Of a DNA stretch of 64,000 bases, positions 38,940-43,867 are shown piece by piece; the first letter of the stretch is position 1; each line of letters starts with the position of its first letter. The stretch is from the sequence record PZ445450.1. One strand, 5' to 3'. This stretch comes from a phage. The notes beneath the pieces were generated by a model that had not been told where the DNA came from, did not search any database, and saw only the letters and a program-made list of their open reading frames with translations. Both the position numbers and the translations under genes were made by a program.

Positions 38940-39194
38940 ATGAAAATTACTCTGAAGCCAGAATGCGTTGAAAATGACCGAGCTTTTAAAGATTGCACAA
39001 TCGGTGCAATTTATGAAGCAGAGTTTTGTGAGAACCCTTTGGTAAAAGCCCTTCTGGAAGAAGGAGCTCCTCTATCACAGGAAGAGCTTGATGAGTTGGA
39101 AAACTCAGCACAGTGCCTTACCTTTAAAGATGATGAAGGAGACTCTGTCTGGTGCACTGTTAATGAAGTAGTTTTTGTAAAACCTGAACATTAA
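38940..39194 (+). CDS. Small protein, paralog family Y (1 of 2)
   Basis: KPECVENDRAFKDCT..KDDEGDSVWCT pattern shared with 39258 gene. Confidence 0.45.
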   Translation: MKITLKPECVENDRAFKDCTIGAIYEAEFCENPLVKALLEEGAPLSQEELDELENSAQCLTFKDDEGDSVWCTVNEVVFVKPEH

Positions 39195-39197
39195 TGC

Positions 39198-39226
39198 TTG
39201 ACAACAGTCATAGGGCTTACTATAAT
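39198..39226 (+). promoter_or_regulatory. Consensus sigma70 promoter
   Basis: Exact TTGACA-N17-TATAAT. Confidence 0.7.
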
Positions 39227-39257
39227 GGCCCTATCAAAACGAAAGGGGACCACAGCA

Positions 39258-39530
39258 ATGACCAAACAATATCAACGAATTAAAGCCAAGGTTAAGCCAG
39301 ACTATCTGGAGAAGGACTCTGCTTTTCGGGACTGCACAGCTGACAAAGTTTACACAGGGGCCGTCCTGTTGAACGATGAACTTGAAGTAGATATTCTGGG
39401 TAAAGAGGCCACTATTAAGGACGACCAAGGCGATTATGTTTGCTGCACCACACGTGAGCTAGAAATCTTAGAATACTTCGGTGAAATCTTCACCTCTCTT
39501 GATGATTACTTAGATGATGAGGAAGCGTGA
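39258..39530 (+). CDS. Small protein, paralog family Y (2 of 2)
   Basis: ATG 39258 downstream of the promoter (track start 39198 lies on the -35); KPDYLEKDSAFRDCT..KDDQGDYVCCT. Confidence 0.45.
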   Translation: MTKQYQRIKAKVKPDYLEKDSAFRDCTADKVYTGAVLLNDELEVDILGKEATIKDDQGDYVCCTTRELEILEYFGEIFTSLDDYLDDEEA

Positions 39531-40557: not shown

Positions 40558-40923
40558 ATGGAACAAATGAACGATCAAGCGTCGGTTGCGATGAACGAGC
40601 AAGAACAACCTCAAGAATTTTTCTTAGGGTTAAGTAAAGATCAAGTGTCTCTTTTGCTAGTGCTTTCTTCTTTCATGGGAAGACTTCAGGAGCTCACACA
40701 ACAACCGGAGGCTGAACAATTATTTCAGGCTCTGCGTGAAGAAGAAAAATATCGTCGTTTGGACTATGCCTTAGGTTGGGTAGCTCAACAACGAGATATG
40801 CTGATGGCCCTCTCTGGGACCACAAGTTTTGCAATGGGCCTGTTGGCTCAAGTTCAGGACAAATTAATTCAAGCAGGGTTTGCACACACGGCAAACACTA
40901 ACGAAGAACAAGGAGACAAATAA
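40558..40923 (+). CDS. Hypothetical protein
   Basis: 121-aa ORF; stop overlaps start of SSB-like gene; preceded by stem-loop GAAGGAGA..TCTCCTTC. Confidence 0.45.
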   Translation: MEQMNDQASVAMNEQEQPQEFFLGLSKDQVSLLLVLSSFMGRLQELTQQPEAEQLFQALREEEKYRRLDYALGWVAQQRDMLMALSGTTSFAMGLLAQVQDKLIQAGFAHTANTNEEQGDK

Positions 40924-42152
40924 TGAGCGTTATTCAACAATTCGCTAACCCGATGAATCCGCGTGAAACTGTTTTACTGGCTCACGGCATGATTAAACGC
41001 GTCAGCATCAAGCCTATCAAAGGTGCTGATCCTACAACAGGTATTAAAACCACTGTGTGGCAAGGTAAGAAAATTGAGTCCAGCCACACCATCTCTTTAC
41101 TGATTTCTGAACTGGATTCCTCTGATAACCTGCTTCAAGGTGGTGAAGAAGTCTGGATCAGCATGGGTGATAAACTGCTTAAACCGGGTCATCAAGACTC
41201 TGTCTCTGTTAAGATTGATGACAAGTGGGAAACCGTAACGCCAGGATGGATCGTAAATATCCCTTTGAAGGCAAACGAGCATAACGGTAAGACCTACTAC
41301 AAAGGCTCACTGGCTAAGATGGTTAAGCTGGGCGCAGGAGAGGCTCCAGCAGCGACTCAGCAGCAAAAACAGCAACAAGGTGCACAATCACAAGGCCAGA
41401 AGCAGAAACCTCAGCAGAATGCCAATCAGGACGTTTTACGCATCTATGGTGATGTGACTCAGATTGTTGGCAACGTGGTTACTGTAAATGACCACAAGAT
41501 TGGCGAAGGTGCTATGGTTGTAACTGATGAGCAGCTTAAAGACCTGGTGGTAGGCGGTCGTGTTGCAGCCATTGTGGACAAAGACACCGGAAACATTATC
41601 AGTGGTTTCAAAGCCTACCCACCTAAGGCAGAGAACGGCACTCAAGGCCCTGGTGGCAAGCGTAAATCCTCTTACGACCCTATTGGTGTGGAGACGGGGC
41701 ATAGCATCAATGCGTTGCAGATCATCCTGGATCGTGGGTTTAAGGTAGACGACCCACTAGGCGTGGCTAAAACACTGCACGTAGTCACCATCGAGCTTAA
41801 GAAAGAGTATGCTCAAGCCACCAACCGAACTGAAGATGAAGTAGGTGCCAGTGTCGGTAATGCGGTGTTGAACGCTTGTCGCCGTATTGACAAGAAAACG
41901 AAAGTTGATGATTTTGCAGCGGCAATTACTGCAGAAGCAAAAGATGTTTTGACTAATCTGGCTGAGCCGTTGTACGATTGGATCAAGAACGGTGCTGAGT
42001 CCACTGACCATCAAGAACCTCAAGCTGCCAAACAGGAAGAAGCCGCTCCACAGCAAAACACTGTAGACGCCCCTCCTGTAAATGATGAGGAAGATGACCC
42101 GATGGATCAGAATCCAGCACAGTACGCCTTTGATGATGACATCCCTTTTTAA
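40923..42152 (+). CDS. SSB-like protein with host-type acidic C-terminal tip
   Basis: Ends FDDDIPF, identical to the bacterial SSB C-terminal tip; Gln-rich low-complexity linker QQQKQQQGAQSQGQKQKPQQ; in replication module. Confidence 0.55.
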   Translation: MSVIQQFANPMNPRETVLLAHGMIKRVSIKPIKGADPTTGIKTTVWQGKKIESSHTISLLISELDSSDNLLQGGEEVWISMGDKLLKPGHQDSVSVKIDDKWETVTPGWIVNIPLKANEHNGKTYYKGSLAKMVKLGAGEAPAATQQQKQQQGAQSQGQKQKPQQNANQDVLRIYGDVTQIVGNVVTVNDHKIGEGAMVVTDEQLKDLVVGGRVAAIVDKDTGNIISGFKAYPPKAENGTQGPGGKRKSSYDPIGVETGHSINALQIILDRGFKVDDPLGVAKTLHVVTIELKKEYAQATNRTEDEVGASVGNAVLNACRRIDKKTKVDDFAAAITAEAKDVLTNLAEPLYDWIKNGAESTDHQEPQAAKQEEAAPQQNTVDAPPVNDEEDDPMDQNPAQYAFDDDIPF

Positions 42153-42167
42153 CATCTAGTCAACATG

Positions 42168-42197
42168 GCCCTGCCCGAAAGGGTGGGGCATTTTTGT
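42168..42197 (+). terminator. Rho-independent terminator (second identical copy)
   Basis: Same 23-mer GCCCTGCCC-GAAA-GGGTGGGGC followed by ATTTTTGT. Confidence 0.7.
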
Positions 42198-42993: not shown

Positions 42994-43419
42994 ATGATCT
43001 ATGAAATGCCAAAACTGATTCGTGACGATGCCCAAAACGCTCACACCATTATTATGGGCAAACGCATGGATATTATTTGTCATAAAGATTTCTGGGAAGG
43101 AAGTTACTTCACAGAGTATTTTGGTAAACTGGACAATGGTCTGCTGATCCAGTTCTACACCGATGCGGAAAACAACATTCACTGGGAGTTCGAAACTGAA
43201 GATATCCATAAACTTTTCACCTTCCTCGGTATTAAGGTTGAGGCCAAGTTTGAAGAAGGTGAGTGCGACGATTGTGGATTCTATGAGGTAACAGATTTCT
43301 ACCTTCCAAGTGGTAAAAATCTCTACTACGAAAGCCACTTCGGCAACTCAAATATGCCACAGGGTTGGGATGAGTTTTTGGAAATTGCAGAAGAGGAGCT
43401 GGAATACCGTGATTATTGA
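42994..43419 (+). CDS. Hypothetical protein, translationally coupled to the macro-like gene
   Basis: 141-aa ORF; stop overlaps downstream start. Confidence 0.45.
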   Translation: MIYEMPKLIRDDAQNAHTIIMGKRMDIICHKDFWEGSYFTEYFGKLDNGLLIQFYTDAENNIHWEFETEDIHKLFTFLGIKVEAKFEEGECDDCGFYEVTDFYLPSGKNLYYESHFGNSNMPQGWDEFLEIAEEELEYRDY

Positions 43420-43867
43420 TACTGTAAAGGGAGATCTAATCTCCATTTTCAAGAAAGGGTCAGGCCACATGATCCACGGTTGTAACTGCTTTCACACAAT
43501 GGGTGCAGGTATAGCGAAAGATATTGCCCGTGAGTTCCCTCAAGCACTGGCAGCCGACAAAGAGACTGCTTATGGTAATCTAGACAAGCTGGGTATGTTT
43601 TCTTGTTGGGAGCATTTTGCCAAGGCCAGGGTCGTATATGGAATCAACCTGTATACCCAGTTCTACCCAGGGCCCAATGCTGAATACTTCTCAATCATGA
43701 AAGGTTTTGAGCGAGTCAACGAGGTATTCAAAGGTATGTCATTGCCGTTCTACATTCCTAAAATCGGATGCGGTATTGGAGGTCTAAAGTGGGAACATGT
43801 AGAAGATGTAATTAATCTTGCAACCACAGATATTGATGTGGTTGTAGTAGAGTACAAAAAGTGTTGA
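43409..43867 (+). CDS. Macro-like domain protein (ADP-ribose binding/processing fold)
   Basis: IHGCNCFHTMGAGIAKDIAREFP and PKIGCGIGG fit the Macro_2/Poa1p-like signature; start proposed at GTG 43409 after GAGGAG (track start would overlap upstream gene by 110 nt). Confidence 0.5.
   Translation: MIIDTVKGDLISIFKKGSGHMIHGCNCFHTMGAGIAKDIAREFPQALAADKETAYGNLDKLGMFSCWEHFAKARVVYGINLYTQFYPGPNAEYFSIMKGFERVNEVFKGMSLPFYIPKIGCGIGGLKWEHVEDVINLATTDIDVVVVEYKKC

What the first reader, a model, noticed from the sequence alone, without database searches (positions are those of the whole stretch)
40923..42152. Phage SSB-like protein ending in the bacterial SSB tip DDDIPF
The C-terminal hexapeptide is identical to the conserved bacterial SSB protein-interaction tip and is preceded by a Gln-rich disordered linker. 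This suggests the phage protein could recruit host SSB-interacting factors to its own replication forks; at 409 aa it is about twice the size of a typical bacterial SSB.
Basis: partly seen in the sequence, partly recalled or inferred. Interest (0 to 1): 0.55.

Follow-up and report, generated by a model that had tools for sequence, protein, structure and literature searches.

The report
Phage SSB-like protein with host tip

Summary
The ORF is real: 40923-42152, + strand, 409 aa. Its last 7 residues (FDDDIPF) match E. coli SSB. The window is an rV5-like Vequintavirus.

The protein is 99% identical (404/409) to Bas52_0087 of phage RudolfGeigy. A bioRxiv preprint of April 2026 already describes Bas52_0087 as "SSB-like" (two OB folds, disordered C-terminus, E. 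coli-like C-tip) and shows genetically that it is needed to trigger DRT10.

My tests agree:
- A second compact OB fold probably follows.
- A conserved four-helix domain has no recognisable relative and holds the escape sites D252 and Y351.
- The acidic tail is predicted disordered.

No Pfam, NCBIfam or PDB-sequence match appears, even with a 142-sequence profile, so this is a sequence-orphan family (PHROG 4477, at least 229 clusters). It usually lies beside primase-helicase and DNA polymerase genes, and one well-annotated relative has no other annotated SSB. The tip is the most conserved segment family-wide.

ssDNA binding and tip-partner binding remain untested. Verdict: already known, moderate interest.

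Side observation: some alleles add a conserved 15-residue extension after IPF; in Vequintavirus it comes with an endonuclease VII gene.

The parts
40558..40923 (+). Upstream 121-aa ORF (PHROG 7310, unknown function). Its TAA stop overlaps the ATG of the SSB-like gene (TAATG). Probably co-transcribed and translationally coupled, but not conserved next to distant homologs.
   Evidence: overlap; no similarity to the upstream gene in L011, E 0.065; no Pfam or NCBIfam hit
40910..40916 (+). Ribosome-binding site AAGGAGA, 6 nt upstream of the ATG
   Evidence: sequence 40890-40940; an RBS is annotated at the same place in phage Mangalyan
40923..42152 (+). SSB-like gene, 409 aa plus stop; ortholog of Bas52_0087 (99% identical)
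   Evidence: (PHROG 4477, E 5e-172)
40923..41339 (+). Residues 1-139: OB fold 1, the presumed ssDNA-binding domain. Conserved aromatic positions W78, W102 and position 120; conserved basic positions K97 and K123.
41340..41429 (+). Residues 140-169: Gln-rich disordered linker (13 Q in 30 residues)
   Evidence: (pLDDT < 50 for 140-168)
41430..41630 (+). Residues 170-236: small beta domain, probably a second compact OB fold. Absent from about three quarters of family representatives.
41631..41669 (+). Residues 237-249: short Gly- and Lys/Arg-containing disordered linker
41670..41990 (+). Residues 250-356: four-helix domain present in nearly all family members (motifs D252-x2-G-x3-GH-x2-N and G308-x3-G312). 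It contains both DRT10 escape sites, D252 (codon 41676-41678) and Y351 (codon 41973-41975). It has no recognisable structural relative; the preprint proposes it as the oligomerisation interface.
   Evidence: preprint
41991..42122 (+). Residues 357-400: disordered acidic, Pro/Gln-rich tail
   Evidence: (pLDDT < 50 for 359-409)
42123..42149 (+). Residues 401-409 (YAFDDDIPF): SSB-type acidic tip with a free C-terminal Phe; the most conserved segment of the family
42168..42196 (+). Intrinsic-terminator-like hairpin (9 bp stem, 7 GC pairs) followed by a T-run, 16 nt after the stop

Best explanation
This is the phage's own single-stranded-DNA-binding protein, from a lineage not detectably related by sequence to bacterial SSB, T4 gp32 or T7 gp2.5. 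Proposed mechanism: OB fold 1 binds ssDNA at phage replication and recombination intermediates, helped in this lineage by OB fold 2. The conserved four-helix domain joins subunits together. A long disordered acidic tail presents a free C-terminal ...FDDDIPF peptide identical to the host SSB tip. That peptide docks into the hydrophobic-pocket-plus-basic-rim sites of SSB partners: host enzymes such as ExoI, and possibly also phage replisome proteins. The resulting change in ssDNA handling during infection is what DRT10 senses. Shown: the sequence and its family-wide conservation, and (by others) the genetic requirement of the 99%-identical ortholog for DRT10 triggering. Predicted: the folds and the disorder. 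Inferred: ssDNA binding, oligomerisation through the helical domain, and tip-partner docking.
Confidence: 0.7

Rival explanations
1. It is an SSB, but the tip serves the phage's own machinery (its family-A polymerase, primase-helicase, exonucleases or recombination proteins) rather than host partners. The identity with the host tip would then reflect common descent or capture of a generally useful docking peptide, not hijacking. This overlaps with the main explanation and could be true at the same time.
For: The phage encodes its own polymerase, primase-helicase, second helicase, ligase, RNase H and exonucleases, so it may need little from the host replisome. There is precedent: the terminal Phe232 of T7 gp2.5 is needed to contact T7 polymerase, and the six C-terminal residues of HK620 SSB (NDYPPF) recruit the phage's own Sak4. 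The tip is conserved in family members from metagenomes with varied endings (LPF, VPF, PW, DF).
Against: The window's tip matches E. coli SSB over 7 residues, and other members over 11-13 residues, beyond what a generic acidic-plus-Phe tail needs. DRT10 triggering by the ortholog is genetically tied to the host tip-binder ExoI.
Confidence: 0.35
2. It is mainly a decoy. The tip titrates host SSB-interacting proteins (for example ExoI, RecQ, RecJ, PriA) away from host SSB to disable host repair, restart or nucleases, and DNA binding is secondary or absent.
For: The tip is the most conserved segment of the family. [quoted passage not shown]
Against: Expressing Bas52_0087 alone did not affect host viability and did not trigger DRT10, which argues against strong titration of essential SSB partners. 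Two OB folds with conserved aromatic and basic positions, plus a conserved helical domain, are far more than a decoy peptide needs. The position in the replication module fits a replisome part.
Confidence: 0.12
3. It is not a general SSB but another OB-fold DNA-metabolism factor, such as a recombination mediator or annealing protein, or a helicase or primase loader, that happens to carry an SSB-type tail.
Confidence: 0.1
4. The DDDIPF ending is a chance resemblance with no function.
For: None found.
Against: Expected occurrences in the window are 5.8e-6. P and F are 95-96% conserved across 142 sequences that average about 25% identity.
Confidence: 0.01

Closest known systems
Bas52_0087 (QXV84166.1) of Escherichia phage RudolfGeigy/Bas52, the DRT10 trigger (bioRxiv 10.64898/2026.04.29.721553)
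   Same: It is the same gene: 404 of 409 residues identical, the same D252 and Y351, the same FDDDIPF ending, and the same neighbours. The preprint's AlphaFold reading (two OB folds, disordered C-terminus, E. coli-like C-tip) matches my independent models and fold searches.
   Different: Five substitutions or indels, none in the tip's last 7 residues (position -8 is A here and S in Bas52). Not stated in the text I read: the family is a sequence orphan with at least 229 clusters; the tip is its most conserved segment; OB2 is optional; the escape sites lie in a helical domain with no known relative; and capped (extended) alleles exist.
Bacterial SSB (E. coli SSB, Pfam PF00436)
   Different: No detectable sequence homology in the folded part. 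It has two different OB folds plus a four-helix domain in one 409-aa chain, whereas E. coli SSB has a single OB fold that tetramerises. The oligomerisation mode is unknown.
T7 gp2.5 and the DUF2815 phage SSBs
   Same: A phage-encoded OB-fold SSB with an acidic C-terminal tail whose terminal Phe is the docking residue. It is also a recurrent trigger of defence systems.
   Different: Only weak Foldseek similarity to the DUF2815 structures 4klk and 4jg2 (E 0.06-0.23) and no sequence match. The T7 tail is known to contact T7's own polymerase and helicase and is not the bacterial IPF tip.
Phage-encoded bacterial-type SSBs (for example HK620 SSB, tail NDYPPF)
   Same: A phage SSB whose C-terminal hexapeptide is needed to recruit a partner to SSB-coated ssDNA.
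   Different: As I understand it, those are true homologs of host SSB that inherited the tail (the paper reports a roughly 95 kDa, tetramer-sized protein; I did not test family membership). Here the folded part is unrelated by sequence, so the tail was either captured or converged.
Tandem-OB SSBs (Thermus/Deinococcus SSB, RPA)
   Different: The two OB folds here are unlike each other in size (139 and 67 residues) and are separated by a 30-residue Gln-rich linker. An extra helical domain is present.

Membership tests
Bas52_0087 orthologs / PHROG 4477 | Full-length sequence match to the family profile and to Bas52_0087 | tested here: met
   PHROG 4477 E 5.3e-172 over residues 1-409; 99% identity to QXV84166.1
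Bas52_0087 orthologs / PHROG 4477 | Residues D252 and Y351 (DRT10 escape sites) present | tested here: met
   D252 is 84% conserved family-wide
Bas52_0087 orthologs / PHROG 4477 | Triggers DRT10 during infection | not testable with these tools
   Shown for the ortholog only, in the preprint
Bacterial SSB (Pfam PF00436) | Sequence match to the SSB profile | tested here: not met
   No Pfam hit for the protein or for any of 142 family members; no PDB-sequence hit with the family profile; no NCBIfam hit
Bacterial SSB (Pfam PF00436) | OB fold of the SSB/RPA/PriB type | tested here: met
Bacterial SSB (Pfam PF00436) | Disordered linker ending in the acidic tip D-D-D-I-P-F with a free C-terminus | tested here: met
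Bacterial SSB (Pfam PF00436) | Homotetramer (or dimer of tandem OB folds) formed through the OB domains | not testable with these tools
   No multimer prediction was available. The preprint places the escape sites at a putative oligomerisation interface.
Functional SSB (any lineage) | High-affinity, sequence-independent ssDNA binding | not testable with these tools
   Only indirect support: conserved aromatic and basic positions in OB1
SSB-Ct interaction hub | The tip peptide binds SSB-interacting proteins (ExoI, RecQ, PriA, chi, DnaG and others) | not testable with these tools
   Sequence identity with the E. coli tip. There is a genetic link between the ortholog and SbcB/ExoI through DRT10, but no binding data.
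T7 gp2.5-like SSB (DUF2815) | Sequence or clear structural match to gp2.5/DUF2815 | tested here: not met
T4 gp32-like SSB | Sequence match to the gp32 family | tested here: not met
   No Pfam or PDB-sequence hit of any kind

The most novel reading that the evidence does not exclude
This is an independent SSB lineage that captured the bacterial SSB tail. Some members share 11-13 terminal residues with E. coli SSB although the folded part shows no homology. The lineage uses the tail to plug phage ssDNA into the host SSB interactome. A sub-population of alleles masks that tip with a conserved 15-residue cap ([AS]P[VIL]G[LK]QY-x4-[IVL][YH]x[LM]), which in Vequintavirus travels with an endonuclease VII gene. 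The population would then be polymorphic for an 'open' and a 'capped' tip, perhaps under pressure from defences such as DRT10 that sense the consequences of tip activity.
Probability: 0.2. Interest if true: 0.6.

Novelty: already known. Interest (0 to 1): 0.3.

Why it matters
Phage SSBs are emerging as common alarm signals for bacterial immunity (Retron-Eco8, DARNA, Hna, DRT10). This protein is the DRT10 trigger of rV5-like phages, a group used in E. coli O157 biocontrol. If the host-identical tip really docks host SSB partners, that would explain how infection disturbs ExoI-controlled ssDNA turnover and sets off DRT10. It would also give a clean example of a virus copying a host hub peptide onto an unrelated scaffold. 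The protein and the idea are already published as a preprint, so what remains of value is biochemical proof and the family-level picture: an orphan SSB lineage, an optional second OB fold, an unknown helical core, and capped alleles.

Tried and rejected
1. Sequence-based family assignment found nothing. I tried Pfam on the protein, Pfam on each of 142 family members, NCBIfam, PDB sequences with the single protein and PDB sequences with the 142-sequence profile.
4. The upstream 121-aa gene as a conserved partner: rejected, because it shows no similarity to the upstream gene of a distant homolog. The JLBYU08 label 'putative SSB' for it has no support.
5. My first idea that the post-IPF extension is merely read-through into an inserted homing-endonuclease cassette: rejected as a full explanation. 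Two distant homologs carry the extension followed directly by a stop and a terminator with no endonuclease, and the codons differ synonymously.
6. Testing whether the tip varies with the host's own SSB tip was not possible. Cultured members are almost all from enterobacterial hosts, and metagenomic members have no host assignment.
7. A literature search for earlier descriptions of rV5 SSB found nothing before the 2026 preprint.

Full report
OBSERVATION. The ORF exists exactly as described: 40923..42152, + strand, ATG start, 409 aa, ending ...NPAQYAFDDDIPF followed by TAA. It has a strong ribosome-binding site (AAGGAGA, 40910-40916). Its ATG overlaps the stop of the upstream 121-aa ORF (TAATG), and a GC-rich hairpin plus T-run follows at 42168-42196. 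I verified the E. coli SSB sequence against PDB 1eqq/4mz9. The window protein shares its last 7 residues (FDDDIPF) with it. Only 1 of 357 six-frame segments of at least 60 aa in the window ends in [DE]3[ILVM]PF, against 5.8e-6 expected from composition. The really Gln-rich linker (13 Q in 30 residues, 140-169) lies between the first two folded domains. The stretch before the tip is disordered and acidic, with Pro and Gln (the tail 357-409 has net charge -14).

WHERE IT COMES FROM. The gene is 93-99% identical in DNA to 115 records of rV5-like Escherichia phages (Vequintavirus), nearly all of which annotate it as 'hypothetical protein'. It lies on the same strand downstream of a Dcm methyltransferase, a primase-helicase and a DNA polymerase. 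A full read of the best-annotated relative (JLBYU08, 236 features) shows a complete replication set: polymerase, primase-helicase, second helicase, ligase, RNase H, exonucleases and nucleotide-metabolism genes. No other gene there is annotated as an SSB. That is annotation-level evidence only, because most genes are hypothetical.

IT IS ALREADY DESCRIBED. A literature search found bioRxiv 10.64898/2026.04.29.721553 (Sanchez-Nieto et al., April 2026). Two Bas52 mutants that escape the DRT10 (UG17) reverse-transcriptase defence carry D252V or Y351C in Bas52_0087 (QXV84166.1). Wild-type protein supplied in trans enhances restriction and the mutants do so much less. The protein alone neither harms the host nor triggers DRT10. 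[quoted passage not shown] The host exonuclease SbcB/ExoI, a known tip partner, suppresses DRT10 toxicity, and its overexpression weakens defence. I located Bas52 (phage RudolfGeigy, MZ501102.1) among my hits. bas52_0087 is the matching CDS, and the window protein is 404/409 identical to it, with D252 and Y351 in place. In the text I read, that preprint reports no ssDNA-binding or tip-binding biochemistry.

THE FAMILY. By sequence the protein is an orphan. It has no Pfam, NCBIfam or PDB-sequence relative, even when each of 142 members is scanned or a 142-sequence profile is used. Only PHROG 4477, 'unknown function', matches it. An exhaustive profile search finds 229 cluster representatives at 50% identity. 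Among 131 representatives of at least 230 aa, 100 are short forms (under 340 aa) and 31 are long forms like this one. In the alignments the short forms examined lack the middle domain, so the core architecture is OB1, helical domain and tail, and OB2 is an insertion in a subset. Across 142 sequences that average about 25% identity to the window protein, the nine-residue tip is the most conserved segment (mean top-residue frequency 0.72, against 0.41-0.42 for the OB1 and helical domains). P is 95% and F 96% conserved. D252 is 84% conserved. OB1 keeps aromatic positions (78, 102, 120) and basic positions (97, 123). Of 206 family sequences, 157 end in PF. Thirteen share 9-13 terminal residues with E. 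coli SSB, for example NEPPMDFDDDIPF in P0123. That reaches beyond the nine-residue functional tip, so I think capture of a bacterial ssb 3' end is more likely than pure convergence (inference). Cultured members are confined to the 135-155 kb rV5-like myoviruses, almost all with enterobacterial hosts. Two of three distant metagenomic loci inspected over 8-kb flanks keep the order primase-helicase, polymerase, small genes, then this gene. The third does not.

MECHANISM. The best reading (confidence about 0.7) is that this is the phage's replicative and recombinational SSB. The OB folds bind ssDNA, the helical domain mediates self-association (the escape mutations map there), and the disordered acidic tail presents a host-identical docking peptide. 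T7 gp2.5 uses its terminal Phe for T7 polymerase, and HK620 SSB uses its last six residues for the phage's own Sak4. A pure decoy role is unlikely. The ortholog is not toxic when expressed alone, and the protein carries far more conserved structure than a decoy needs. A RecO-like mediator role is a weak alternative.

AN UNEXPLAINED POLYMORPHISM. Twenty-one family sequences continue past IPF. In about 14 of them the addition is a conserved peptide of roughly 15 residues, [AS]P[VIL]G[LK]QY-x4-[IVL][YH]x[LM]; the others add only one residue (N or S). The long form includes P0001, a 90%-identity cluster of 533 sequences. In Vequintavirus (Mangalyan, MaxBurger) the difference from the window is a single 638-bp block inserted exactly after the terminal Phe codon. 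It contains the extension plus a 207-aa endonuclease VII-type gene (PHROG 1035, E 1e-40), whose ATG lies inside the extension codons. The window has the uninterrupted allele. The extension is not just insertion debris. Two distant homologs have it followed directly by a stop and a terminator, with no endonuclease, and the GLQY codons differ synonymously between lineages. A different HNH endonuclease abuts the 3' end of another homolog. Modelling of the DnaG pocket has the terminal Phe carboxylate contacting a basic residue. The same is true of other SSB-Ct pockets as far as I recall. The extension should therefore mask the tip. What it does is unknown.

VERDICT. Novelty is 'already known'. Interest is moderate to low (0.3). 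What is left is biochemical proof, the unknown helical core and the capped alleles.

Noticed in passing
L005:2824-3461 (phage Mangalyan) against window 42148/42149; also L004, and proteins P0001, P0006, P0020, P0022, P0044, P0051, P0053, P0061, P0092: Many alleles of this gene continue past ...IPF with a conserved peptide of about 15 residues (for example APVGLQYGKSRIHAL). In Vequintavirus it comes as one 638-bp block together with an endonuclease VII-type gene (PHROG 1035), inserted exactly after the terminal Phe codon. In two distant homologs (L014, L015) the extension is present without any endonuclease and with synonymous codon differences, so the peptide itself seems to be under selection. 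It should bury the Phe carboxylate of the tip. Its function is unknown.
   Followed up: partly
L013:9161-9670: A different endonuclease (Pfam HNH_3) directly abuts the 3' end of the homolog P0054, which has no extension. Mobile endonuclease genes therefore recur at the tip-coding end of this gene family.
   Followed up: no
L012:7837-8001: In a 45-kb metagenomic phage contig, the gene immediately upstream of the homolog P0058, with its stop overlapping the homolog's start, is a T7 gp5.9-like RecBCD inhibitor (PF25708, E 9e-19). This places the family next to anti-RecBCD functions and outside the rV5-like myoviruses.
   Followed up: partly
window 39198-39226: A perfect sigma-70 consensus promoter (TTGACA, 17 nt, TATAAT; 12 of 12 matches) on the + strand at the start of ORF 39198-39530. 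It may drive the downstream block of small genes that leads to the SSB-like gene.
   Followed up: no
window 38940-39194 and 39198-39530: Two adjacent small ORFs hit each other's PHROG families (12544 and 11936), so they look like tandem paralogs of unknown function.
   Followed up: no
window 43310-43867: A Macro-domain protein (PF01661, E 5.8e-6; PHROG 335 'phosphatase') about 1.2 kb downstream of the SSB-like gene. It may act on ADP-ribose. The ORF listing start (GTG at 43310) is probably too far upstream, because relatives annotate a 152-aa product.
   Followed up: no
window 40558-40923; L001:8636-9001: The upstream 121-aa gene is labelled 'putative single-stranded DNA-binding protein' in phage JLBYU08. 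It has no Pfam or NCBIfam hit, falls in a PHROG of unknown function, and is not conserved next to distant homologs. The label looks like an annotation carried over from its neighbour.
   Followed up: partly
phage records MG065654-MG065690: About 16-21 records named 'Campylobacter phage' with host Campylobacter jejuni are 95-97% identical to E. coli rV5-like phages over this gene. The host labels look doubtful, or the phages were co-isolated coliphages.
   Followed up: no
L002:2203-5822 (phage AlexBoehm): The DNA polymerase gene upstream is annotated as joined from two pieces, with a homing-endonuclease gene inside. In JLBYU08 it is annotated as two separate polymerase CDSs. I did not check whether the window's polymerase is interrupted in the same way.
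   Followed up: no
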